From contig CBDBNA010000005.1 of assembly GCA_965207695.1 (NCBI GenBank), positions 121,144 to 185,143 of the forward strand: DNA of 64,000 nucleotides. Direction: 5' to 3'. The notes under the pieces are model-generated. The model did no database searches, was not told where the DNA came from, and saw only the letters and a list, made by a program, of their open reading frames with translations. Made by a program: the position numbers and the translations under genes. Below, in pieces: positions 8,839-50,554 of the stretch (within the stretch, counting starts at the first letter, position 1; each line of letters begins with the position of its first letter). The stretch comes from Dehalococcoidia bacterium (GTDB lineage: Bacteria > Chloroflexota > Dehalococcoidia > Bin125).

Positions 8839-10353
8839 TCAGCCGATCCGCACGCCCTCGGCCGGGTAGCGGTAGCGCGCCTGGCCGCGGTCGGGCACGG
8901 TCAGCGCGACCATCAGCGGGGCCAGCCGGCCCACGAACATCAGCACGATCAGGATCGCCGTGCCCGCGCCCGAGAGCGTCGCCGTCACGCCCTGCGACCA
9001 GCCCACGTTGGCCAGCCCCGACATCGCCTCGAAGACCAGCGGCAGCACGGGGCCGTCCTCGGCCAGCATCATCGCGACCACGCCGACCGTCAGCGCCACG
9101 ACGCCCAGCAGCACGACCGCGATCGCCCGCAGCACGACGGCGTGCGGGATCTCGCGGCCGAACAGCTCGGCCTGGTGCCGCCCCCGCAGCGACGACACGA
9201 CCACCGCCAGCCCCACGACGAACGTGCCCACCTTGATCCCGCTCGCCGTCGAGGTGGAGGCGCCGCCGATGAACATCAGCGGCAGCAGCACGACGGTCGT
9301 CACGTCCTGCAGGGCGCTCATGTCCACCGCCGACATGCCCGTCGTGCGGTTGACCGAGAGGAAGAAGGAGTTGACCAGCGCCTCGAGCGGGGTGCGGCCG
9401 TCGAGCACGCGGCCCGACTGCACCTCGGCGGCGAGGAAGAGCGCCATGCAGCCGACGAGCAGGCCGGCCATCATCAGCACGACCATGCGCGTGTCGAGCG
9501 ACCAGCGCCGCCAGCCGCGCCGCAGGTCGAACACGGTCACGAAGGACAGGCTGCCCAGGAACGCCGCCACGCCCATCACGATCAGCGGGTAGGGCGCGCC
9601 GATCTGCGCTTGGAAGCTCTGCCGCCCGCCCATCAGGTCGAAGCCGGCGCTGTTGAAGGCCGAGACGGCGTGGAACAGCGCCGACCAGACCGCGCCCGCC
9701 CCGCCGAACTCGATCAGGAACCAGGGCAGCAGGAGGAGGAACGTCAGGACCTCCGCCACCGCGACGTAGATCAGCACCCGCCGCAGCAGCCGGCCGATGT
9801 CCCACTCGCCCGAGCCCGTCAACTCCATGCCGAAGAGGCTGCTGCCGCGCAGCCCGAAGCGGCGCCCCAGCAGCACCAGCAGCGAGCCCGCGTAGATCGT
9901 CACGCCCAGGCCGCCGATCTGGATCAGCGCGATGATCACGGCCTCGCCGAAGCCGCTCCAGTGCTCCGCCGTGTCGACCCGCACGAGGCCGGTCACGCAG
10001 ACCGCCGAGGTCGCCGTGAACAGCGCGTCGAGCCCGTTCGTCCAGCGGCCCGACTCCGCTGCCCAGGGCAGCGACAGCAGCGCCGCGCCGATGAGGATCG
10101 CCGCCCCGAAGGCGCCCACCAGGTACCAGGGCGTGGGGCGCAGGCGGATCACGCGCCGCGGGCGCTCGAGCGCGAAGACCTCCGTCTGCACGCGCCGGCG
10201 CCGCAGGACCACGTCGCCGGGGCGCCGCACCGTGCGCGACCGTGTCGTGCGCGCCTCCCCGCCGCCTCCGCCGCCGCCCCGTCCCCGCCGCGCCGCCGCC
10301 CGCCGCCACCCGGCCCGAAGCCACGCCCGCGGTCGCACAGCCATCGCCTCCAC
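8839..10353 (-). CDS. trkH: TrkH/KtrB family potassium uptake transporter
   Basis: Multi-pass membrane protein with repeated selectivity-filter-like segments (IQIGGLG, SAFNSAGF, GASTSTASGIKVGTF). N-terminal Arg/Gly-rich extension; the true start may lie downstream. Confidence 0.85.
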   Translation of the reverse strand: MEAMAVRPRAWLRAGWRRAAARRGRGGGGGGGEARTTRSRTVRRPGDVVLRRRRVQTEVFALERPRRVIRLRPTPWYLVGAFGAAILIGAALLSLPWAAESGRWTNGLDALFTATSAVCVTGLVRVDTAEHWSGFGEAVIIALIQIGGLGVTIYAGSLLVLLGRRFGLRGSSLFGMELTGSGEWDIGRLLRRVLIYVAVAEVLTFLLLLPWFLIEFGGAGAVWSALFHAVSAFNSAGFDLMGGRQSFQAQIGAPYPLIVMGVAAFLGSLSFVTVFDLRRGWRRWSLDTRMVVLMMAGLLVGCMALFLAAEVQSGRVLDGRTPLEALVNSFFLSVNRTTGMSAVDMSALQDVTTVVLLPLMFIGGASTSTASGIKVGTFVVGLAVVVSSLRGRHQAELFGREIPHAVVLRAIAVVLLGVVALTVGVVAMMLAEDGPVLPLVFEAMSGLANVGWSQGVTATLSGAGTAILIVLMFVGRLAPLMVALTVPDRGQARYRYPAEGVRIG

Positions 10354-10355
10354 CT

Positions 10356-10412
10356 CCCCCCGACGATACGCCCTCCGTCGCTACGCGCAGTCGTGAGGGG
10401 CGTCGGGTGTAC
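10356..10412. repeat. Divergent, longer variant of the family-A repeat (CCCCCGACGATACGCC...GGGGCGTCGGGTG)
   Basis: Head CCCCCGACGATAC and tail GGGGCGTCGGG resemble family A. Lies in the divergent intergenic region between trkH and the next plus-strand gene. Confidence 0.45.
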
Positions 10413-10463
10413 CATGGCCGCAGGTCGCAGAGCGACGTCCCAGGAAGGGATCCGACGTGCCCG

Positions 10464-11108
10464 ATGAACCGCAGTCCGCTCAGCCGCCTCCTCCACATCC
10501 GCCGCCTTCGTCGAACCCCGGCAGGATTCTCAGGGACGCTGGACAACCCCGGCGTCAGGCGAATAACGAACTCCGCTGACGACGCCGTGGACCCCGCTGA
10601 TGATCCGGGCGTCCCCCCGCCCCACGCTGCGCAGTCATTCGATCCCGAGAACTACCCGAGCCTCGACTTGGCGTTCCGGCAAGGCGTGCGCTCGTACTCG
10701 CAAGTCGCCGCCCGACTCACGGCCGTCCACGGACGGATCGATGCCCTTCAGTGGGCTGTGATATGGCTGACGGTCGCGTTCCCGATCGGTGTGCGGGCAG
10801 CCGACGGGGCCGCGAGCTTCACATCGGGATTCGCCATCGCTGCGTTCGCGTTGGCGGGAGTCACAGTCTTCCTGGGGCTGGCAGCCCGCGCATGGTCTGG
10901 AATGACGCTGGTCAACCCCGCCCGTCTCTACGCGCACTGGCTCCACCTGCCCGAAAAGGAGTTCAAGCTCCGCAGTCTCTATTGGGCGGGCCAGCACTTC
11001 GAAGAGAACTCCCGGGCCGTGAACCGGAAGTCGTTGCTTGCGTCGCTCATGGTCCTACTCCTGCTCGTCGAAGTCGGGCTGTTCGTCGCCTGGTTCGCGA
11101 GCACGTAG
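10464..11108 (+). CDS. Hypothetical membrane protein (start could instead be the in-frame ATG at 10413)
   Basis: Three to four predicted TM segments (WAVIWLTVAFPIGV, FAIAAFALAGVTVFLGLAA, LLASLMVLLLLVEVGLFVAWF). Lower GC (about 60%). The long 5' extension in the ORF track overlaps the trkH 5' end and is unlikely to be real. Confidence 0.45.
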   Translation: MNRSPLSRLLHIRRLRRTPAGFSGTLDNPGVRRITNSADDAVDPADDPGVPPPHAAQSFDPENYPSLDLAFRQGVRSYSQVAARLTAVHGRIDALQWAVIWLTVAFPIGVRAADGAASFTSGFAIAAFALAGVTVFLGLAARAWSGMTLVNPARLYAHWLHLPEKEFKLRSLYWAGQHFEENSRAVNRKSLLASLMVLLLLVEVGLFVAWFAST

Positions 11109-11139
11109 AGGCCGCTCCGGGCCTCCTTCCAGGCGCCTT

Positions 11140-11238
11140 GGGAGCCCCTTGGGAGCCCCTTCCGGACCCCTTCTGCACCCCTTCTGCACCCCTTCCGGAC
11201 CCCTTCTGCACCCCTTCTGCACCCCTTCCGGACCCCTT
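11140..11238. repeat. Perfect 11-bp tandem repeat array, 9 units (GGGAGCCCCTT x2; then [CCGGACCCCTT CTGCACCCCTT CTGCACCCCTT] x2 + CCGGACCCCTT), giving a 33-bp higher-order period
   Basis: Read directly from the sequence. Intergenic: 32 bp after the stop at 11108 and about 100 bp before the 11338 start. Confidence 0.95.
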
Positions 11239-11337
11239 GACGGACGAACGGACAACCCGCTACGATCATCCACAGAACCGCGTAACGCGTTCTGAGGCAC
11301 TTCGCGAACAATAGCTCGTCCCGACGCACGGGAGCCA

Positions 11338-12012
11338 ATGAGAGGCCCTCGTGTGTCCACTTCCATCGACGACCAACTACCCGATCCGCTGCCCGTCCGC
11401 GCCCGCAAGTGGGGCGCCGGCCCCCGCGTCCAGGAGCGCCTGCGCTCCGTCGCCGACCTCCGTCGGCGCGGCCTCGGGCGAGCCGAGATCGCCGCGAAAC
11501 TCGGCGTCTCCCCACCGACGATCTCCCGCGACCTGGCCCGCGTCGACCTGATCGAGCAGCACCAAGAGGCCGAGTTCGTGCACACGCAGCAGATCGAGTG
11601 CCTACTCTCCCTGCGCGAGCTCACGCTGGTCTGCTGGCACGTCATCTCCCGCTACCGCTACGACCCGGACCGCATCGCCGACATGGCCGCCGTCGCGAGC
11701 GTCGTCGTCGCCGCGCAGCGCGAGGCCGGGCGCATTCTCGCCGGCTCCCGAGACCCCAACGCCGGCGACTCCGACGGCGAGAATCGGGAGGACCAAGACA
11801 TAACCGAGGGAGAAACCCTCCTGATGAGCCTTCTCAACATCCAGAGACCCGATTATGGAGAGGGCGAGATCGCCGATCTGCGTCGGGCCGTCGACGCCGA
11901 TTTCTCCCGTTACCTGAAACCCTCCCGGCTCGCCGTCATCCAGCGCGGCCTGGCCCTCGTTCAACGCGACGCCCCCGACGCGCTGACGAACGCCGCCGCG
12001 CCCGACGACTGA
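11338..12012 (+). CDS. Hypothetical HTH-domain protein (sigma-70 region-4 / small-terminase-like helix-turn-helix), 224 aa
   Basis: LRRRGLGRAEIAAKLGVSPPTISRDLARV is a classic HTH. GC drops to about 52% in the 3' half. Bracketed by tandem-repeat arrays. Confidence 0.5.
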   Translation: MRGPRVSTSIDDQLPDPLPVRARKWGAGPRVQERLRSVADLRRRGLGRAEIAAKLGVSPPTISRDLARVDLIEQHQEAEFVHTQQIECLLSLRELTLVCWHVISRYRYDPDRIADMAAVASVVVAAQREAGRILAGSRDPNAGDSDGENREDQDITEGETLLMSLLNIQRPDYGEGEIADLRRAVDADFSRYLKPSRLAVIQRGLALVQRDAPDALTNAAAPDD

Positions 12013-12058
12013 CGCCGCGGCGCCGGCGCGGGCCCCGGCCGAAAAAAATGGCCGATTT

Positions 12059-12088
12059 CCTGCAAATTCCTGCAAATTCCTGCAAATC
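12059..12088. repeat. 10-bp tandem repeat x3 (CCTGCAAATT CCTGCAAATT CCTGCAAATC), preceded by an A7 run
   Basis: Read directly. Low-GC, 47 bp after the stop of the HTH gene. Confidence 0.9.
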
Positions 12089-12189
12089 GGCTCCCGGCGT
12101 TCGCTTCGCGGACCTCAAGATCCCCGCCGGCCCACACTGACCGACTCCGTCCCGGCACGATCCCGGGCCCCCGCCCGAGCCCCGCCGGC

Positions 12190-45484: not shown

Positions 45485-48400
45485 ACCGCCCGCATGCAAG
45501 CCGACCGCATCCGCAGCACGTTCCGCGAGTTCTTCGAGCAGCACGACCACCTGGCCGTGGCCAGCGCCCCGCTCGTCGCGCCGGGCGACCCGACGCTGCT
45601 CTTCACGAGCGCGGGCATGGTGCCCTTCAAGCCCTACTTCATGGGCCAGGCGGCGCCGCCGCAGCCGCGCCTGACCTCGACACAGAAGTGCTTCCGCACG
45701 ACCGACATCGACGAGGTCGGCGACGAATCGCATCTGACGTTTTTCGAGATGATGGGCAACTTCTCCCTGGGCGACTACTTCAAGGCCGAGGCCCAGGCCT
45801 GGGCCTGGGATCTGGTCACGAAGGTCGTGGGCGTGCCCGCCGACCGGCTCGTGACGACCGTCTTCCTCGACGACGACGTGGCGCACGAGAACTGGCGCAA
45901 AATTGGCGTGCCCGAGGATCGCATCTATCGCTACGGCGAGGACCAGGGCAACTACTGGTTCTCGGGCCTCAACGGCCCCTGCGGCCCATGCTCCGAGATC
46001 CACTACGACCTCCGGCCCGACGGCTCGCACCCCGGCCCCGCCGCCGACGAGGACCGCTACCTGGAGATCTGGAACCTCGTCTTCATGCAGTTCCTGCAGA
46101 ACCCCGACGGCTCCCGTACGCCCCTGCCCAAGCAGAACATCGACACCGGCGCGGGGCTGGAGCGCTGGGCGATGATGCTGCAGGACACCCCGACGCTGTA
46201 CGAGACCGACGTCTTCGCGCCGCTGCTGGCCTACGTCGCGGAGCGCTGCGCGCGCGACTACGCGACCGCGCCCGACGCGGAGCAGTCGGCGCTGCGGGTC
46301 GTCGTCGAGCACGGCCGCTCGATGACCTTCCTCGTCTCCGACGGCGTCCTGCCCAGCAACGAGGGGCGCGGCTACGTGCTGCGACGCCTGATCCGCCGCG
46401 CGCTCTACATGGCCCACACGCTGGGCATCCAGGAGCCGCTGCTGGTCGACGTCGCCGCGCAGGTCCGCGGCCACATGGGCGACGCCTACCCGGAAATCCG
46501 CGATCAGGCGGCGCTGGTCGACAACGTGCTCGCGCAGGAGGAACAACGTTTCCGCCGCACGCTGGAGACCGGCCACACGCTACTGGAGGAGCAGACGATC
46601 CCCCTCAAGCGCGTCTTTGCGGCCACCTCGGCGCCGTTCCACGAGCGCGCGCGGGCCGCCGCCGGGACCGAGGCGCTGGCCGGCGTCGCGACGGAGTGGC
46701 GCGACGCCCTGGCCGGCGAGTTGCGCGGCTTCTCCGACCTGCGCAACCGCCCCCTGGCCGATCTCTCGCAGCGGCTGGCCCTGGCGCCGGTCGAGCGACT
46801 CGCTGGGGCGGAGGAGGCCCCGGACGGGGACGCGCTCGCGGCCCTGCTCGACCGGCAACGGGCGGCCACGCAGGCCGTCGCCGGCGAGGAGGCCTTCGTC
46901 CTCTACGACACCTACGGCTTCCCCATGGAGCTCACCCGCGAGGTCGCCCGCGCGGCCGGCCTGGGCCTGGACGAGAGCGGCTTCGAGAGCGCGATGGCGC
47001 AGCAGCGCTCGCGCGGGCAGGCCGCCTCGGAGTTCCAGACCGACGCCGCCGAGCACCTCTTCGCCGGCATCGACGGCCGCACCGACTTCCTGGGTTACGA
47101 CTCGGTCGCCGCCGAGGGGCGCGTGCTCGCGCTCATCGTCGACGGAGAGCGGCGGCAGCGGGTCGAGGTCGGCGAGCCGGGCGAGGAGGCGCCGCTGGAG
47201 GTCGTGCTCGACCGCACGCCGTTCTACGCCGAGGGCGGCGGGCAACAGGGCGACTCCGGCCGCCTGGTGGGGCCCGGGGGCGAGATCGCTGTGGGCGACA
47301 CGCAGCCCCGCGGCGACCTGCAGACCCACCTGGGCACGCTGGCGGCCGGATCGATCGCCGTCGGCGACCCGGTGCAAGCCACCGTCGACCTCGAGCGCCG
47401 CCACGGGCTGATGCGCAACCACACCGCCACCCACCTGCTGCACGCGGCCCTGCGCGCCGTACTGGGCGACCACGTGCGCCAGGCGGGCTCGCTCGTCGCG
47501 CCCGACCGGCTGCGCTTCGACTACACGCAGCCCGGCGCGCCCGCCGCCGCCGAACTGGCCGATGTGCAGGAACTCGTCAACGCCCGCATCCGCGACGACA
47601 TCGCCGTGGGGACGAACGAGATGCCCTACGCGCAGGCGCTGGAGTCGGGCGCGATCGCCATCTTCGGCGAGAAGTACGCCAGCGACGTCCGCGTCGTCGA
47701 GATCTGCGACCCGGCCCCGCACGTGCACGACTGCTTCAGCAAGGAGCTGTGCGGCGGCGTGCACGCGCCCGCGACGGGCTTCGTGGGTGCGTTCCAGATC
47801 GTCAGCGACGCCAGCATCGGCGCGGGGCTGCGCCGCATCGAGGCGCTCACCGGGGCGGCCGCCGGGGCCTGGCAGCGGCGCCGGCTGGAGTCGCTGCAGC
47901 ACACGGCCCAACTGCTCAAGACGCCCCCGGAGGAGGTGCCGGCGCGGGTGCAGGCGCTGCAGGACGAACTCGCCGACGCGCGCCGACGACTGGCCGAGAT
48001 CGAGCGGCAGGCGGGCGCGGCCTCGGCCGGGGACCTGGCGGCCGACACGGTCGAAGTCGCGGGCGTGCCCCTCGCTACCGGCCACATCGAGGTCGAATCC
48101 TCCGACGCGCTGCGCCGCGCCGGCGACGAACTGCGCACGCGCATGGGCAGCGGCGTCATCGTGCTGGCGACGGTGGCCGGCGGCAAGCCGCAGTTCCTCT
48201 CGATGATCACGCCGGACCTGGTCGAGAGGGGCCTGCACGCGGGCGCCCTGATCAAGCAGGTGGCGCGGGTCGCCGGTGGCGGCGGCGGCGGCCGGCCCGA
48301 GATGGCGCAGGCCGGCGGTAAGGATCCGGGCCGGGTGGACGACGCCCTGGCGGCCGTCCCGGCCATCCTGCAGCGTTTGATCGACGAGCAGGGGCGCTAA
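45485..48400 (+). CDS. alaS: Alanine--tRNA ligase
   Basis: FREFFEQHDH...FTSAGM...class II core; editing-domain HxxxH...CGGVH (NHTATHLLHAAL ... CGGVHAP); C-terminal DHHA1. Confidence 0.9.
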   Translation, partial: TARMQADRIRSTFREFFEQHDHLAVASAPLVAPGDPTLLFTSAGMVPFKPYFMGQAAPPQPRLTSTQKCFRTTDIDEVGDESHLTFFEMMGNFSLGDYFKAEAQAWAWDLVTKVVGVPADRLVTTVFLDDDVAHENWRKIGVPEDRIYRYGEDQGNYWFSGLNGPCGPCSEIHYDLRPDGSHPGPAADEDRYLEIWNLVFMQFLQNPDGSRTPLPKQNIDTGAGLERWAMMLQDTPTLYETDVFAPLLAYVAERCARDYATAPDAEQSALRVVVEHGRSMTFLVSDGVLPSNEGRGYVLRRLIRRALYMAHTLGIQEPLLVDVAAQVRGHMGDAYPEIRDQAALVDNVLAQEEQRFRRTLETGHTLLEEQTIPLKRVFAATSAPFHERARAAAGTEALAGVATEWRDALAGELRGFSDLRNRPLADLSQRLALAPVERLAGAEEAPDGDALAALLDRQRAATQAVAGEEAFVLYDTYGFPMELTREVARAAGLGLDESGFESAMAQQRSRGQAASEFQTDAAEHLFAGIDGRTDFLGYDSVAAEGRVLALIVDGERRQRVEVGEPGEEAPLEVVLDRTPFYAEGGGQQGDSGRLVGPGGEIAVGDTQPRGDLQTHLGTLAAGSIAVGDPVQATVDLERRHGLMRNHTATHLLHAALRAVLGDHVRQAGSLVAPDRLRFDYTQPGAPAAAELADVQELVNARIRDDIAVGTNEMPYAQALESGAIAIFGEKYASDVRVVEICDPAPHVHDCFSKELCGGVHAPATGFVGAFQIVSDASIGAGLRRIEALTGAAAGAWQRRRLESLQHTAQLLKTPPEEVPARVQALQDELADARRRLAEIERQAGAASAGDLAADTVEVAGVPLATGHIEVESSDALRRAGDELRTRMGSGVIVLATVAGGKPQFLSMITPDLVERGLHAGALIKQVARVAGGGGGGRPEMAQAGGKDPGRVDDALAAVPAILQRLIDEQGR

Positions 48401-48437
48401 GGGCTATTCCCACGGGACGGGCCTCCCGGCGGGACGG

Positions 48438-48467
48438 TTGACACTCTCTCGCTCCATCCGCTATATT
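48438..48467 (+). promoter_or_regulatory. Near-consensus sigma-70 promoter: TTGACA, 18-bp spacer, TATATT
   Basis: Read directly from the sequence. Sits in a low-GC spacer, which is unusual for this genome. Predicted TSS about 48474. Confidence 0.45.
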
Positions 48468-48474
48468 GTTCTCA

Positions 48475-48692
48475 TAGAACGCGTATCGCGTGTCCTGGAT
48501 CCCGACCGACACCAGCCACGGACTCGGATGAGCCCGTGAAAGAACGTGAAAGATCGTGCAAGATCCGGCAAGTTCGTGCCGGATTCGTGCTCCCAGATGC
48601 GCCCAGATGCTCCAAAATGCGCGCCGGTGCAAGCCCATGCAACCCCATGACTCCACGTGACCGGGCAAGATCCCCAGTAAACATGGGGTTTT
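48475..48692 (+). ncRNA. Candidate roughly 215-nt small RNA (unknown family) containing about 13 degenerate 10-nt periodic repeats
   Basis: Bounded by the promoter above and a hairpin + U-tract. No RBS-supported ORF. About 52% GC in a 70% GC genome. Internal units cgtgaaagaa/cgtgaaagat/cgtgcaagat/ccggcaagtt/cgtgccggatt/cgtgctccca/gatgcgccca/gatgctccaaa/atgcgcgccg/gtgcaagccc/atgcaacccc/atgactccac. Confidence 0.3.
48672..48692 (+). terminator. Intrinsic terminator candidate: CCCCAgtaaacaTGGGG + TTTT
   Basis: 5-bp GC-rich stem, 7-nt loop, T4 tract. Confidence 0.4.
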
Positions 48693-49019
48693 CGCCTCGC
48701 AGCCTCTCGCTAGGCGCCCCGCAGAAAAAAAAGTGAAGACTCAAACCGTGATCTTGATGCCCGTGACCCGCTCCGCGCCCGCGTCGTCGCTCAACTCCGA
48801 CGCCCCGGCGCCGATGTGAAGGGGTCCTAGCGCGGCCCACCCCGCCACGCCCGCGTCCCGGTTCGATATGCTCATCGCACAGGCGTGGCGGCGCCCGCGA
48901 CGGGGAGACCAAGGGGCAAGAGCGCCGTCGAATGCAGATGCACCACCGCCGCCCAGCCGGCCCGCGCGCCGCGACGGATCGTCGGTCGCGTGGCTGAGCC
49001 CGCGCACCCGCCCGGCCGC

Positions 49020-49484
49020 GTGCTCGCCATCGACCCCGGCGAGCGCTGGATCGGGGTCGCCCTCTCCGACGACGCCCGCCGGCTGGCGCTGCCCAGCACG
49101 ACGATCGACCGGCGCGCCCTGCGCCCGGACACGCCCGCCGCGATCGCCGCCGCCATCCACGCCGCGATCGCGCCCGACGCGCCGGCGCTGCTCGTCGTCG
49201 GCGTGCCCTATCGCCCCGACGGCGCCGAGGACGCCCAGGCCGCGGCCTTCCGCGAGCTGGGCGCGGGCGTCGCCGGCGCGCTGGGGCTGCCCCTGGCCGT
49301 GCAGGGGGAACGCCACTCGAACGACGCCGCACCGGCGCCGACGACGGAGAAGCCGCGCGGCGGACGCCGGCCGGGGGCGATCAGCCCCGCACGCCGCGCG
49401 CACCGGCGCGAGAAGCAGCACGCCGCCGCCGCCGCGACCATCCTCCAGCGCTGGCTCGACATCCAGCGCGCGGGCAAGCCATGA
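49020..49484 (+). CDS. ruvX: Putative pre-16S rRNA nuclease / Holliday-junction-resolvase-like YqgF (RuvX); GTG start, upstream alternative at 48990
   Basis: VLAIDPGERWIGVALSD...LLVVGVPY RNase H-like motif. Its stop overlaps the mltG start. Confidence 0.75.
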   Translation: MLAIDPGERWIGVALSDDARRLALPSTTIDRRALRPDTPAAIAAAIHAAIAPDAPALLVVGVPYRPDGAEDAQAAAFRELGAGVAGALGLPLAVQGERHSNDAAPAPTTEKPRGGRRPGAISPARRAHRREKQHAAAAATILQRWLDIQRAGKP

Positions 49485-50554
49485 ACCGCCAGTTGGCTTG
49501 GGCGGTGAGTGGGACCCTGGTGGCCGTGCTGGCCGCGGTGGCGGTGTGGATCTCGCTCGGCAGCCCCGGCGCCGTCCTCGGCGACGCGCCGGAGCCGCGG
49601 GAGCAGCACCCCGCCCGGGGCGGGGAGACGATCGTCGTCGAGATCCCCAGCGGTCACACCGCCGAACAGATCGGCGACGAACTCTTCCGCCGCGGCGTGA
49701 TCACATCCTCGCGGCAGTTCCAGACCCTGGTCGGGCTGCTGGGCTACGAGGGCCGCCTCGTCGTCGGCACGTACGACTTCGAGCCCGGGATGCTCACCAT
49801 GGACGTGATCGAGCGCATCCGCCGCGGCGTCACGTCGGAGATCGTGGTGACGATCCCGGAGGGCTGGCAGGCGGCCGAGATCTTCGCGCGCGTCGCCGAG
49901 CACAGCCCGATCAGCGTCGCCGATCTCGAGGCCGCCGCCGCCGACCCGGCCGTGGCACGGGGCACCCTCGCCCTCGGGCGACCCGGCGGCGTCTCGCTCG
50001 AGGGCTACCTCTTCCCCAGCACCTACGTCATTTCCCGCGTCGCAACCGCGGCCGACGTCGTCCGGCAGATGCTGCGCCGCTTCGACGATCAGATCACGCT
50101 CGATATGCGGGCCGAGATCGCCGCCGCCGGCCGTCCCCTGCACCTGCTGCTGACGATCGCTTCGATCGTGGAGCGGGAGGCAGTGCTGCCCGCCGAGCGG
50201 GCCGTCATCGCCTCCGTGTTCTGGAATCGCATCGACAACGACCTGCCGCTCCAGGCCGACCCGACGGTGCAGTACGCGCTGGCGCAGGATCCAGACAGCG
50301 TCGCCCTCTACGGCCACTGGAAATCCCCTTTGACGGCCGAGGATCTGCAAGTGCCGTCGCCCTGGAACACGTATGCTTCCGACGAAGTGCCGCCGACCCC
50401 GATCGCCTCGCCGGGCATCGAATCCATCCTCGCCGCCCTGCGCCCGGCGGAGACGCCGTACTTCTTCTTCGTCGCGCGGGGCGACGGCGGGCACCTGTTC
50501 GCGGAGACCTTCGAGGAGCACCGCGACAACGTCGATCGGGTGCGCAGCCAGTAG
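49481..50554 (+). CDS. mltG: Endolytic murein transglycosylase MltG (YceG-like)
   Basis: N-terminal TM segment; YceG domain (LTIASIVEREA...DPTVQYAL...WNTY...GLPPTPIASPG). Confidence 0.85.
   Translation: MNRQLAWAVSGTLVAVLAAVAVWISLGSPGAVLGDAPEPREQHPARGGETIVVEIPSGHTAEQIGDELFRRGVITSSRQFQTLVGLLGYEGRLVVGTYDFEPGMLTMDVIERIRRGVTSEIVVTIPEGWQAAEIFARVAEHSPISVADLEAAAADPAVARGTLALGRPGGVSLEGYLFPSTYVISRVATAADVVRQMLRRFDDQITLDMRAEIAAAGRPLHLLLTIASIVEREAVLPAERAVIASVFWNRIDNDLPLQADPTVQYALAQDPDSVALYGHWKSPLTAEDLQVPSPWNTYASDEVPPTPIASPGIESILAALRPAETPYFFFVARGDGGHLFAETFEEHRDNVDRVRSQ

What the first reader, a model, noticed from the sequence alone, without database searches (positions are those of the whole stretch)
48401..49019. 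Candidate novel small RNA in the unusually long, low-GC alaS-ruvX spacer: consensus promoter, intrinsic terminator and about 13 degenerate 10-nt periodic repeats
alaS, ruvX and mltG are normally tightly packed, but here alaS and ruvX are separated by about 620 bp. That spacer contains TTGACA-18-TATATT (48438-48467), rare for a 70%-GC genome, and then a roughly 215-nt region of about 52% GC. About 130 nt of it (48536-48670) is a degenerate decamer repeat (cgtgaaagaa, cgtgaaagat, cgtgcaagat, ... atgcaacccc, atgactccac). It is closed by CCCCAgtaaacaTGGGG-TTTT at 48672-48692. The only ORF there (48536-48736, 66 aa) lacks an RBS, reads through the terminator, and reads the 10-nt repeat in rotating frames, so an RNA product (multi-site protein-sponge RNA, 6S-like or other sRNA) or a protein-binding DNA array is more plausible than a coding gene.
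Basis: seen in the sequence. Interest (0 to 1): 0.7.

Follow-up and report, generated by a model that had tools for sequence, protein, structure and literature searches.

The report
Strain-variable non-coding cassette with phased decamers
A 430-base insertion, present in only some strains of an uncultured soil Chloroflexota, sits directly after the alaS stop codon and carries a strong promoter, about 13 ten-base repeats that each keep an A/G-T-G core, and a terminator hairpin; it codes for no protein and most likely makes, or is, a multi-site docking platform for an unknown protein.

Summary
TTGACA-18-TATATT (48438-48467) is the only sigma70 match of at least 10/12 in the 64 kb. Thirteen units of 10 nt (one is 11) lie at 48535-48669, and 12 carry in-phase RTG (shuffles give at most 4). 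A CCCCA-N7-TGGGG-TTTT hairpin follows at 48672-48692. GC is 59%, not 52%. The 66-aa ORF is not coding.

New finding: 48401-48830 is a 430-nt indel. Four allele types from close relatives carry it. Two equally close relatives and an 82%-identical outgroup show clean empty sites. Its right end repeats the last 19 nt of alaS. One lineage has rluD instead of alaS on its left.

Inside the cassette, array and hairpin are conserved (93-96%), against 86% at third codon positions and 70-80% in the flanks. None of 13 variable array columns hits an RTG. One allele lacks exactly one unit.

No Rfam hit, no covariation, no second copy, and no homologue in plasmids, phages or JGI and IMG/VR contigs.

Best reading (about 0.35): an accessory transcription unit giving a roughly 220-nt unstructured RNA whose phased RUG motifs dock an oligomeric protein. 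Nearly as likely (0.3): a phased DNA iteron array. Phage arrays of the same architecture sit next to terminase or replication genes. Function is unproven.

The parts
48401..48830 (+). 430-nt non-coding cassette (indel). Present in the window, L081, L083 and L086-L089. Absent, with clean empty sites, from L084, L085 and the outgroup L090-L092.
   Evidence: Alignments; relatedness matrix; nhmmer profile finds only these copies.
48438..48467 (+). Sigma70-type promoter TTGACA-18-TATATT. Other alleles read TTGACT/TTGACG-18-TAAACT: TTGAC, TAnAnT and the 18-nt spacing are kept.
   Evidence: 11/12; 0.1 expected; only match of at least 10/12 in 64 kb; allele comparison.
48474..48692 (+). Predicted primary transcript, about 219 nt. 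The start is inferred 7 nt after the -10 hexamer and the end at the U-tract. This is an inference, not an observation.
   Evidence: Inference; folds (z -1.2 and -2.1).
48468..48534 (+). Fast-evolving leader between promoter and array (70% identity window vs L081 or L086).
48535..48669 (+). Array of 13 units of 10 nt (unit 5 is 11 nt). Consensus is c-R-T-G-M-n-n-S-n-n. There are three sub-families, CGTGAAAGAT-like, ATGCGCCCAG-like and RTGCAACCCC-like. L081 lacks exactly one unit.
   Evidence: 92.8-96% identity between alleles; none of 13 variable columns falls in the 36 RTG positions, P=0.018.
48562..48585 (+). 9-bp hairpin inside the array (GAUCCGGCA / UGCCGGAUU). One pair is broken in L081 without compensation.
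   Evidence: pair 96-111 reads G-G in L081.
48672..48692 (+). Terminator-like hairpin CCCCA-GTAAACA-TGGGG followed by TTTT. The pair just outside the stem runs U/U (window), U-G (L081, L083), C-G (L086).
   Evidence: pair 201-219; 91-96% identity.
48725..48732 (+). A8 tract, kept as A7-A9 in all alleles inside an otherwise fast-evolving tail (48693-48830, 80-86% identity).
48812..48830 (+). Right-end direct repeat: CGATGTGAAGGGGTCCTAG resembles the last 19 nt of alaS.
   Evidence: 13/19 matches in the window; 15/19 for the L086 allele against the empty-site alaS end. Background is 6e-4 and 1.5e-5.
48382..48400 (+). alaS 3' end including stop TAA (CGACGAGCAGGGGCGCTAA); the left copy of the direct repeat. 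alaS itself is 45494-48400.
48831..48989 (+). Native ruvX leader. It is not part of the cassette but lies inside the finding's coordinates. It is 97-100% identical in the clade-A relatives measured (L081, L083, L086) and still recognisable in the 82% outgroup.
48932..48997 (+). 21-codon upstream ORF whose TGA overlaps the candidate ruvX start GTG at 48990. No indels between clades, but the substitution pattern gives no clear coding signal.
   Evidence: and direct reading.

Best explanation
Window 48401-48830 is an accessory, self-contained non-coding cassette. It entered the alaS-ruvX junction of one clade of an uncultured Chloroflexota with a roughly 19-nt duplication of the alaS end.

I think it most likely works as its own small transcription unit. 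The near-consensus promoter fires at about 48474. RNA polymerase crosses a dispensable 60-nt leader and then the 135-nt array, and stops at the hairpin-U4 at 48692. The product would be a largely unstructured RNA of about 220 nt. It would display 12-13 R-U-G-(A/C) motifs at a fixed 10-nt pitch. These motifs would be docking sites for successive subunits of an oligomeric (ring or filament) RNA-binding protein, so the RNA would act as a multivalent decoy or sponge. The logic is that of TRAP or CsrB, with a different motif and geometry.

Shown: the layout, the non-coding nature, the presence/absence polymorphism, and selective constraint on array, RTG cores and hairpin.

Inferred: transcription, the RNA ends, protein binding, and RNA rather than DNA as the active form.
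For: - The promoter is the only sigma70 match of at least 10/12 in 64 kb. Its TTGAC, TAnAnT and 18-nt spacing survive in alleles whose promoter region is otherwise 73-77% identical.
- The conserved block ends exactly with the hairpin-U tract. Identity window vs L081 is 92.8% for the array and 95.7% for the hairpin. This compares with 86% at alaS and mltG third codon positions, 70% in the leader and 80% in the tail.
- The pair flanking the terminator stem goes U/U, then U-G, then C-G across alleles. Two C-to-U changes in L081 keep pairs as G-U. Wobble intermediates make sense in RNA only.
- Thirteen variable columns among four alleles all avoid the 36 RTG positions (P=0.018). In-phase RTG count is 12, against a maximum of 4 in shuffles.
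- The array is not coding.
- The cassette holds no ORF for a cognate DNA-binding protein. Cis-acting DNA arrays usually sit beside such a gene, whereas sRNA genes are usually orphans.
- Weak secondary structure (z -1.2 and -2.1) fits a single-stranded binding platform.
Against: - There is no expression data.
- No known RNA-binding oligomer reads motifs at a 10-nt pitch, whereas about 10 bp is the helical repeat of DNA.
- The closest architectural analogues found (RTGM-N6 arrays in phage contigs) sit next to terminase genes or inside a replication-initiator gene. They are almost certainly DNA sites.
- The promoter hexamers are not measurably more conserved than their spacer (3/12 vs 5/18 changes).
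- The U-tract has only 4 U, and the tool's terminator scan does not call it.
- There are no compensatory pairs, and three pairs in the array are broken in L081.
- The 5' leader is unconstrained.
- The cassette is dispensable, since closely related strains lack it.
Confidence: 0.35

Rival explanations
1. The array works as duplex DNA. It would be an iteron-like landing pad on which a ring- or filament-forming DNA-binding protein (HTH or RHH type) places one reading head on RTGM in each successive major groove. The model is DNA wrapped on a small-terminase ring, ParR on parC, or initiator on iterons. The promoter and the CCCCA-N7-TGGGG inverted repeat would be parts of the same nucleoprotein site: a roadblocked promoter and a dimer operator. 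The cassette could be a leftover of an integrated element.
For: - Spacing is 10 nt in eleven intervals and 11 in one, a mean of 10.08, which equals the helical pitch of wrapped DNA.
- The motif has 4 informative bp followed by 6 degenerate bp.
- A generic scan for RTGM-N6 repeated eight times returned 240 arrays. The most similar degenerate ones are in phages. L322 has 14 CGTGC units, also with one 11-nt step, directly upstream of a 226-aa ORF and terL. L214 sits upstream of HNH-terS-terL. L236 is about 600 nt from terL. L230 lies inside a replication-initiator gene.
- Adjacent HTH motifs in small-terminase rings lie about one turn of B-DNA apart (PMC4737164).
- One allele differs by exactly one unit.
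- The cassette's ends look like an integration scar.
- The same window holds two other 10-11-nt arrays flanking an orphan HTH protein gene.
Against: - There is no gene for a binding protein in or next to the cassette.
- This reading gives no reason for the conserved block to end with a hairpin plus U-tract, or for the wobble-type stem changes.
- The shared TGCA-purine core with the other arrays in the window is too common to count as evidence (36 occurrences in the window).
- The sequence of the cassette itself has no relative in phages, plasmids or IMG/VR.
Confidence: 0.3
2. The cassette is a cis-acting leader for the downstream operon ruvX-mltG-aroE-orf-aroC-aroKB. The new promoter would drive the operon. 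A protein wrapping the RUG array in the nascent RNA would decide whether the hairpin at 48672-48692 terminates. This is the logic of TRAP and HutP attenuation.
For: - Order and orientation are right: promoter, triplet array with degenerate spacers, terminator, then same-strand genes.
- The downstream genes include shikimate-pathway genes, which recalls TRAP control of aromatic amino acid genes. This parallel is from general knowledge.
- The RNA is unstructured, as TRAP targets are.
Against: - No antiterminator alternative to the hairpin is evident.
- 138 nt of fast-evolving tail and the native, highly conserved ruvX leader lie between hairpin and ruvX.
- Strains without the cassette express the operon without it.
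- The motif (RUG) and the spacer (7 nt) differ from every known attenuation protein's site.
Confidence: 0.12
3. The cassette has no function. It would be a decaying minisatellite inside a horizontally acquired scar. The promoter and hairpin would be chance or relics, and the apparent conservation would reflect recent spread and recombination.
For: - Presence is patchy even between sisters: L081 carries it, L084 at 96.8% identity does not.
- Unit number varies.
- The neighbour-to-neighbour similarity gradient of the units is typical of slippage.
- L083 is a mosaic of two alleles, so recombination distorts the identity figures.
- Other 10-nt repeats occur in spacers of this lineage (L093; window 12057).
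Against: - Within the same cassette and the same allele pairs, array and hairpin are 93-96% identical while leader and tail are 70-80%.
- Substitutions avoid RTG (P=0.018).
- Units from different sub-families share only the RTGM core, which slippage alone does not explain.
- The only near-consensus promoter in 64 kb lies exactly here.
Confidence: 0.12
4. The array is a series of transcription pause sites. TG every 10 nt puts G at -10, T at -1 and G at +1 of the elemental pause consensus at every unit. RNA polymerase would therefore stutter through the array, for example to favour termination or Rho loading.
For: - The consensus G-10 Y-1 G+1 (extended G-11 G-10 T-3 G-2 Y-1 G+1) is given in PMC6062546.
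- The phase fits exactly, by direct reading of the sequence.
- The array has C > G skew.
Against: - The consensus carries little information. The array region has 13 matches, against 9.4 +/- 3.0 in equal-sized tiles of the window, and 14% of tiles reach 13.
- Y at -1 is always T and never C.
- R at -2 and M at +2 are conserved, which the pause consensus does not require.
Confidence: 0.03
5. The 66-aa ORF 48536-48736 encodes a small protein.
For: An open frame with a GTG start exists.
Against: - GC is flat over codon positions: 0.57/0.60/0.57, against GC3 of 0.92 in mltG and 0.8-0.98 across the window's genes.
- In L081 the frame has a stop after 7 codons and is shifted by the 10-nt deletion. 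In L083 and L086 the C-terminal part differs by frame.
- The ORF reads through the hairpin, and gene callers did not call it in any relative.
Confidence: 0.01

Closest known systems
TRAP (MtrB) binding sites in Bacillus trp leader, and HutP sites
   Same: A run of 9-13 conserved triplets separated by degenerate spacers of fixed length, in unstructured RNA, downstream of a promoter and upstream of an intrinsic terminator. An oligomeric ring reads one triplet per subunit.
   Different: The triplet here is RUG, not (G/U)AG or UAG. The spacer is 7 nt, not 2-4. No antiterminator is evident. No mtrB or hutP relative was sought or seen. The cassette is strain-variable and separated from ruvX by the native leader.
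CsrB/RsmZ/RsmY and CrcZ protein-sponge sRNAs
   Same: An orphan non-coding gene with its own promoter and terminator, whose function lies in many copies of a short motif.
   Different: Those motifs (GGA, A-rich) sit in hairpin loops at irregular spacing. Here the RNA is unstructured and the pitch is exactly 10 nt. No Rfam match even at E<=10.
Phased DNA repeat arrays bound by oligomeric proteins: small-terminase pac/cos regions, ParR-parC and omega-heptad centromeres, replication iterons
   Same: Head-to-tail short repeats at about one helical turn, a short conserved core with degenerate spacer, unit-number variation, and frequent overlap with promoters. Phage arrays with the same RTGM-N6 architecture lie beside terminase or initiator genes. 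HTH motifs in terminase rings are about one DNA turn apart (PMC4737164).
   Different: Those arrays lie next to the gene of their binding protein, on a phage or plasmid. This one is an orphan in a chromosome, bracketed by a promoter and a hairpin-U tract, with no sequence relative in phage or plasmid collections.
MITEs and other small non-autonomous insertions (Correia, BOX, PATE), and att scars of integrative elements
   Same: A few hundred bp, non-coding, strain-variable, inserted in intergenic DNA right behind a stop codon. Can carry promoters and terminators. A direct repeat of the target lies at the two ends.
   Different: No terminal inverted repeats. No second copy in 64 kb or in the other loci searched, about 3 Mb in all. 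The 19-nt imperfect repeat is longer than transposon target duplications. No integrase or transposase is nearby.
VNTR/MIRU-type intergenic tandem repeats
   Same: An intergenic tandem repeat whose unit number differs between strains (L081 has one unit fewer).
   Different: Units are only 10 nt and highly diverged from each other except for RTGM, and substitutions avoid that core. MIRUs are 40-100 nt and translationally coupled to flanking genes.

Membership tests
Any Rfam 15 family (6S, CsrB/RsmZ, 6C, T-box, HEARO and others) | Covariance-model match at or near the gathering score | tested here: not met
   No match in the whole window at gathering thresholds. None in 48300-49100 at E<=10.
6S RNA | Long, nearly closed hairpin with a large central bubble that mimics an open promoter | tested here: not met
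   The MFE and centroid structures are multi-branched with few stable helices. z is -1.2.
CsrB/RsmZ-type sponge | Many GGA motifs presented in hairpin loops | tested here: not met
   The repeated motif is RUG. Direct reading of the sequence finds four GGA in the predicted RNA, only one of them inside the array and none recurring with the repeat. Only two robust hairpins are predicted.
TRAP/HutP-type attenuator | (G/U)AG or UAG triplets with 2-4-nt spacers overlapping an antiterminator | tested here: not met
   The triplet is RUG and the spacer is 7 nt. No alternative pairing with the terminator arm is seen.
TRAP/HutP-type attenuator | Cognate ring-forming RNA-binding protein encoded in the genome | not testable with these tools
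   Only 64 kb of the genome is available.
Independent sRNA gene | Own promoter | tested here: met
   11/12 match; unique in 64 kb. By sequence only.
Independent sRNA gene | Intrinsic terminator (GC-rich stem plus U-tract) | tested here: inconclusive
   A 5-6-bp stem (4-5 G-C pairs) with only 4 U. Not listed by the scan, which needs 5 T in 8. Conserved, with a stem-extending change in other alleles.
Independent sRNA gene | A detectable transcript with defined ends | not testable with these tools
   No expression data are available.
Structured RNA | Covarying base pairs | tested here: not met
   0 of 60 predicted pairs show a compensatory change, and several pairs are broken in L081. Only four alleles, so power is low.
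DNA iteron, centromere or pac-type array | Direct repeats at about one helical turn with a conserved core | tested here: met
   Mean pitch 10.08 nt. Core RTGM carries about 5.6 bits.
DNA iteron, centromere or pac-type array | Adjacent gene for the cognate binding protein (rep, parR/parG, terS) | tested here: not met
   Neighbours are alaS, ruvX and mltG. The cassette has no conserved ORF.
MITE | Terminal inverted repeats | tested here: not met
   Left 60 nt against the reverse complement of the right 60 nt scores no better than shuffles, in both the window and L086. The repeat finder shows none.
MITE | Multiple dispersed copies | tested here: not met
   No other copy in the window or in any fetched locus. 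Whole genomes were not available.
Integrase-mediated island or its scar | Direct repeat of the target gene's 3' end at both junctions | tested here: met
   13/19 matches (window) and 15/19 (L086 allele), anchored at the junction. Background is 6e-4 and 1.5e-5.
Integrase-mediated island or its scar | Integrase gene inside the element | tested here: not met
   The 430 nt hold no ORF. No recombinase was noted among the genes annotated around it.
IS200/IS605-derived PATE | No TIR or TSD, insertion 3' of a fixed short target, subterminal hairpins at both ends | tested here: inconclusive
   Both left junctions follow CGCTAR and the right end also ends in CTAG. Conserved subterminal hairpins were not found.
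VNTR | Unit-number polymorphism between strains | tested here: met
   L081 lacks exactly one 10-nt unit.
Elemental pause array | Enrichment of G-10 Y-1 G+1 matches | tested here: not met
   13 matches against 9.4 +/- 3.0 in tiles of the window; 14% of tiles reach 13.

The most novel reading that the evidence does not exclude
The cassette encodes a new kind of protein-docking RNA: an unstructured transcript whose 12-13 RUG(M) motifs at an exact 10-nt pitch wrap around or along a large oligomeric RNA-binding protein. This would be TRAP-like logic with a new motif and geometry. The RNA would either titrate that protein in trans, or set termination at 48692 and so put ruvX-mltG and the downstream shikimate genes under a horizontally acquired control module.
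Probability: 0.12. Interest if true: 0.8.

Novelty: new variant of a known kind. Interest (0 to 1): 0.5.

Why it matters
If the array is a protein-docking platform, it is an unusually clean natural example of multivalent, phase-locked recognition. Only 4 of every 10 positions are constrained, 12-13 times in a row. It is carried on a small cassette that strains gain and lose, and it is bracketed by the strongest promoter-like site in 64 kb.

Cassette-plus and cassette-minus strains coexist in the same soil sample, so its effect on alaS read-through and on ruvX-mltG-aro expression could be measured directly.

The survey made here also suggests that RTGM-N6 arrays in phages mark packaging or replication sites. 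That could help annotate cos, pac and ori regions.

If the cassette turns out to be neutral, it still documents an insertion hot spot at the alaS stop codon in this lineage.

Tried and rejected
1. The genome-contig scan with full-length AlaS was swamped by universal motifs. It returned only relatives at 34-52% identity, so it gave no information on the spacer.
2. P0008 could not be located.
3. A second copy of the cassette was sought by blastn-short and nhmmer, in the window and in about 400 loci. None was found.
4. Plasmid and phage BLAST of the cassette gave no match.
5. An exact 25-mer in JGI metagenomes gave no match. A 20-mer and a 17-mer in IMG/VR gave no match. The 16-mer GGCAAGTTCGTGCCGG gave 70 hits, all unrelated coding sequence for GKFVP.
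6. Terminal inverted repeats were rejected.
7. A longer duplication of the alaS 3' end (about 60 nt with an internal deletion) is only weakly suggested: 19 of 500 shuffles reach the score.
8. The idea that the cassette is the native downstream flank of rluD was rejected. In L093, rluD is followed by gltX after 52 nt.
9. The pause-array idea was rejected on density.
10. A link to the orphan HTH protein at 11338-12012 through a shared TGCA-purine core was rejected as evidence. The motif occurs 36 times in the window, and the protein has no informative relatives.
11. An N-terminal extension of RuvX from GTG 48885 was rejected. The outgroup has two separate 1-nt insertions there.
12. The 'ruvX_3rd' row used a frame off by one and is not used.
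Full report
**Setting.** The window is high-GC (72.1%). AlaS (45494-48400), RuvX (start GTG 48990 or 49020, end 49484) and MltG/YceG (49481-50554) are on the plus strand. They are followed by aroE, an unknown ORF, aroC and aroK-aroB (Pfam labels from the syntenic relatives). The best AlaS matches among 185,579 species genomes are Chloroflexota/Dehalococcoidia at only 44-52% identity. The closest RluD with a name is 'MAG: Chloroflexi bacterium'. The organism is therefore an uncultured Chloroflexota without a close reference genome.

**Checking the observation.**
- TTGACA-18-TATATT at 48438-48467 scores 11/12, with 0.1 expected in shuffles of the 1.8 kb scanned. My own scan found no other match of at least 10/12 on either strand of the 64 kb.
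- Tandem Repeats Finder reports three period-10 sub-arrays. Read in register they form 13 units, one of them 11 nt. Twelve units carry R-T-G at positions 2-4, and all 13 have A or C at position 5.
- Information per position is 2.35 bits (T), 1.55 (G), 0.95 (M) and 0.74 (R). The other positions carry at most 0.6 bits.
- The in-phase RTG count is 12. In 2000 shuffles the mean is 1.5 and the maximum 4. No other place in the window has 7 or more RTG in strict register at periods 8-12.
- The hairpin CCCCA-N7-TGGGG-TTTT is at 48672-48692. The tool's terminator scan does not list it, because it has 4 T rather than 5.
- GC of the putative transcript is 58.7%, not about 52%.

**Not coding.** The 66-aa ORF has flat GC over its codon positions (0.57/0.60/0.57). 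Real genes here have GC3 of 0.8-0.98 (0.92 in mltG). In L081 the frame stops after 7 codons and is shifted by a 10-nt deletion. In L083 and L086 its C-terminal part changes frame. Gene callers did not call it in any relative.

**Not a known RNA.** Rfam 15 gives no hit in the window at gathering thresholds and none in 48300-49100 at E<=10.

**The spacer is a 430-nt indel.** A RuvX search gave a graded series of relatives, and I fetched their contigs.
- Aligning the spacers shows that window 48401-48830 is present in L081, L083 and L086-L089.
- It is cleanly absent from L084 and L085. There the alaS stop codon is followed directly by the sequence that starts at window 48831.
- L090-L092 also lack it.
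- Over ruvX-mltG, clade A (window, L081, L083-L086) is 92-98% identical, and L090-L092 are an outgroup at 82%. The cassette is therefore derived and patchy.
- L081 carries it while its sister L084 (96.8% identical, same sample ERZ24894577) does not.

**Ends of the cassette.** The last 19 nt of the cassette (48812-48830, CGATGTGAAGGGGTCCTAG) match the last 19 nt of alaS at 13 positions. The L086 allele matches the empty-site alaS end at 15 of 19. Anchored at the junction, the background probabilities are 6e-4 and 1.5e-5. Terminal inverted repeats are not supported.

**A second left context.** In L086-L088, from three independent samples, the left neighbour is not alaS but an rluD-type pseudouridine synthase. 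Its stop codon abuts the cassette at the same base (..CCGCTAG|GCCC.. against ..GCGCTAA|GGGC..), while the right flank is unchanged. In a relative with 86% RluD identity, rluD is followed by gltX with no cassette. The rluD junction is therefore a secondary rearrangement whose breakpoint lies exactly at the cassette's left end.

**Searches for other copies.** No other copy exists in the window or in about 400 fetched loci. There is no relative in plasmids, phages, JGI metagenomes or IMG/VR.

**Constraint inside the cassette.** Window against L081 gives these identities.

| Segment | Identity |
|---|---|
| alaS and mltG third codon positions | 86% |
| Segment before the promoter | 81% |
| Promoter | 73% |
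| Leader | 70% |
| Array | 92.8% |
| Hairpin | 95.7% |
| Tail | 79.6% |
| Native ruvX leader | 98.1% |

The comparison with L086 gives the same picture. Among four distinct alleles the array has 13 variable columns, and none lies in the 36 RTG positions (P=0.018). The two changes at the position after RTG stay within A/C. Units of the three sub-families share little beyond RTGM (mean spacer identity 0.36). The core is thus kept by selection or by a mechanism that needs it, not merely by recent slippage. The promoter keeps TTGAC, TAnAnT and the 18-nt spacing, although 8 of its 30 positions differ. This is suggestive but not significant on its own.

**RNA structure.** The predicted 223-nt RNA folds no better than shuffles (z -1.2). 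Array plus hairpin gives z -2.1. RNAalifold on the four alleles finds 60 pairs and none with a compensatory change. Several pairs are broken in L081, including one in the only strong internal hairpin (48562-48585). Two C-to-U changes in L081 keep G-U pairs. The pair extending the terminator stem runs U/U, U-G, C-G across alleles. Four alleles give little power. As far as it goes, the result is an unstructured RNA with a real terminal hairpin.

**Analogues.** Nothing homologous could be found, so I searched for the architecture itself: RTGM-N6 repeated eight times, in JGI metagenomes and IMG/VR.
- Of 244 arrays analysed, including the window's own, nearly all are near-perfect tandem repeats. 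The window's array is the most degenerate of all.
- The most similar degenerate arrays are in phage contigs.
- L322 has 14 units of CGTGC-N5, also with a single 11-nt step. They lie in a repeat-rich non-coding region directly upstream of a 226-aa ORF and the large terminase gene.
- L214's array lies just upstream of HNH-terS-terL. L236's is about 600 nt from terL. L319's is beside the portal gene at a contig end. L230's is inside a replication-initiator gene.
- These are DNA-level sites. In small-terminase rings, adjacent HTH motifs are about one turn of B-DNA apart, and DNA is thought to wrap around them (PMC4737164).
- This is a resemblance of architecture, not homology. It is the main argument for a DNA-level function here.

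**The pause idea.** TG every 10 nt matches the elemental pause consensus G-10 Y-1 G+1 (PMC6062546) in phase at every unit. That consensus is so weak, however, that the array region has 13 matches against 9.4 +/- 3.0 in equal-sized tiles of the window. The conserved R and M positions are not part of it. I do not favour this reading.

**Weighing.**
- Exact helical pitch and the phage analogues favour duplex DNA.
- Several points favour an RNA product: the unique promoter, a conserved block that ends precisely with a hairpin-U tract, wobble-type stem changes, and the absence of any adjacent gene for a binding protein.
- The uneven conservation within the cassette and the sparing of RTG argue against a neutral scar.
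- I put an accessory sRNA-type docking platform at about 0.35, a phased DNA iteron array at about 0.30, a cis-acting TRAP-like leader for ruvX-mltG-aro at about 0.12, a neutral relic at about 0.12, and pause array or coding together below 0.05.
- What is shown is the anatomy, the polymorphism, the insertion scar and the constraint. Transcription, the partner protein and the active nucleic-acid form are all inferred.

**Verdict.** The finding is real and more interesting than a chance repeat, but it is lineage-restricted, dispensable and functionally unresolved. It belongs to no known RNA family, and it fails the defining tests of MITEs, CsrB-type sponges, 6S RNA and TRAP sites. It shares its logic, many copies of a short motif at a fixed pitch, with both RNA sponges or attenuators and DNA iterons. 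I rate it a new variant of a known kind, with interest 0.5.

Noticed in passing
window 48831-48997: The roughly 160 nt directly upstream of ruvX are 97-100% identical in the clade-A relatives measured (L081, L083, L086). This is more conserved than third codon positions at 86%. The region is still alignable in the 82% outgroup, which has two separate 1-nt insertions, so it is not an N-terminal extension of RuvX. It holds an invariant CGATATGCT, a possible GGCGGCGC/GCGCCGTC stem, and a 21-codon uORF (48932-48997) whose stop overlaps the GTG at 48990. No Rfam match. Possibly a ruvX leader with translational coupling.
   Followed up: partly
window 11136-11265: About nine 11-nt units (CCTTGGGAGCC twice, then CCTTCCGGACC and CCTTCTGCACC in a perfect 33-nt super-repeat) run straight into a promoter-like TTGACG-17-TACGAT. 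This lies upstream of an orphan 224-aa HTH protein (11338-12012; Pfam HTH_23, weak RepB-partition hit). It looks like an autoregulatory or iteron array.
   Followed up: partly
window 12057-12087: Three perfect 10-nt units TTCCTGCAAA lie just after the stop of the same HTH gene. Region 10242-12180 (an unknown 288-aa ORF plus the HTH gene) lies between trkH and mazG, and the HTH gene has a lower GC3 (0.83) than most of the window's genes. It may be a small island.
   Followed up: partly
L086:1-700, L087, L088: In three independent samples the cassette and ruvX lie downstream of lspA/rluD-type genes instead of alaS. The junction is exactly at the rluD stop codon. This is a genome rearrangement whose breakpoint coincides with the cassette's left end.
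   Followed up: partly
L093:1848-1900: The 52-nt rluD-gltX spacer of a relative contains three 10-nt tandem units (CAAGGCTGAG) just before the gltX start. Short 10-nt repeats seem common in spacers of this lineage.
   Followed up: no
L082:2960-3650: A more distant relative (67% RuvX) has a different, C-rich insert of about 600 nt upstream of ruvX, containing a direct duplication of about 250 nt. A 559-aa ORF with a weak Baseplate_J hit lies between the alaS fragment and this insert. The junction may be an insertion hot spot. The contig is a noisy long-read assembly.
   Followed up: no
L322:10010-10160; L214:761-851; L236:10060-10150; L230:10550-10640: Phage contigs carry 8-14 phased RTGM-N6 units with degenerate spacers next to terminase genes (L322, L214, L236) or inside a replication-initiator gene (L230). 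In L322 the array is followed by a second array of about seven GAGGTCCGACTCTCGT repeats. These are candidate cos/pac or ori sites.
   Followed up: partly
window 48725-48732: An A8 run, rare in a 72% GC genome, is kept as A7-A9 in all cassette alleles within an otherwise fast-evolving tail. In L086 the minus strand could form a hairpin followed by T8, but this is not conserved in the other alleles.
   Followed up: partly
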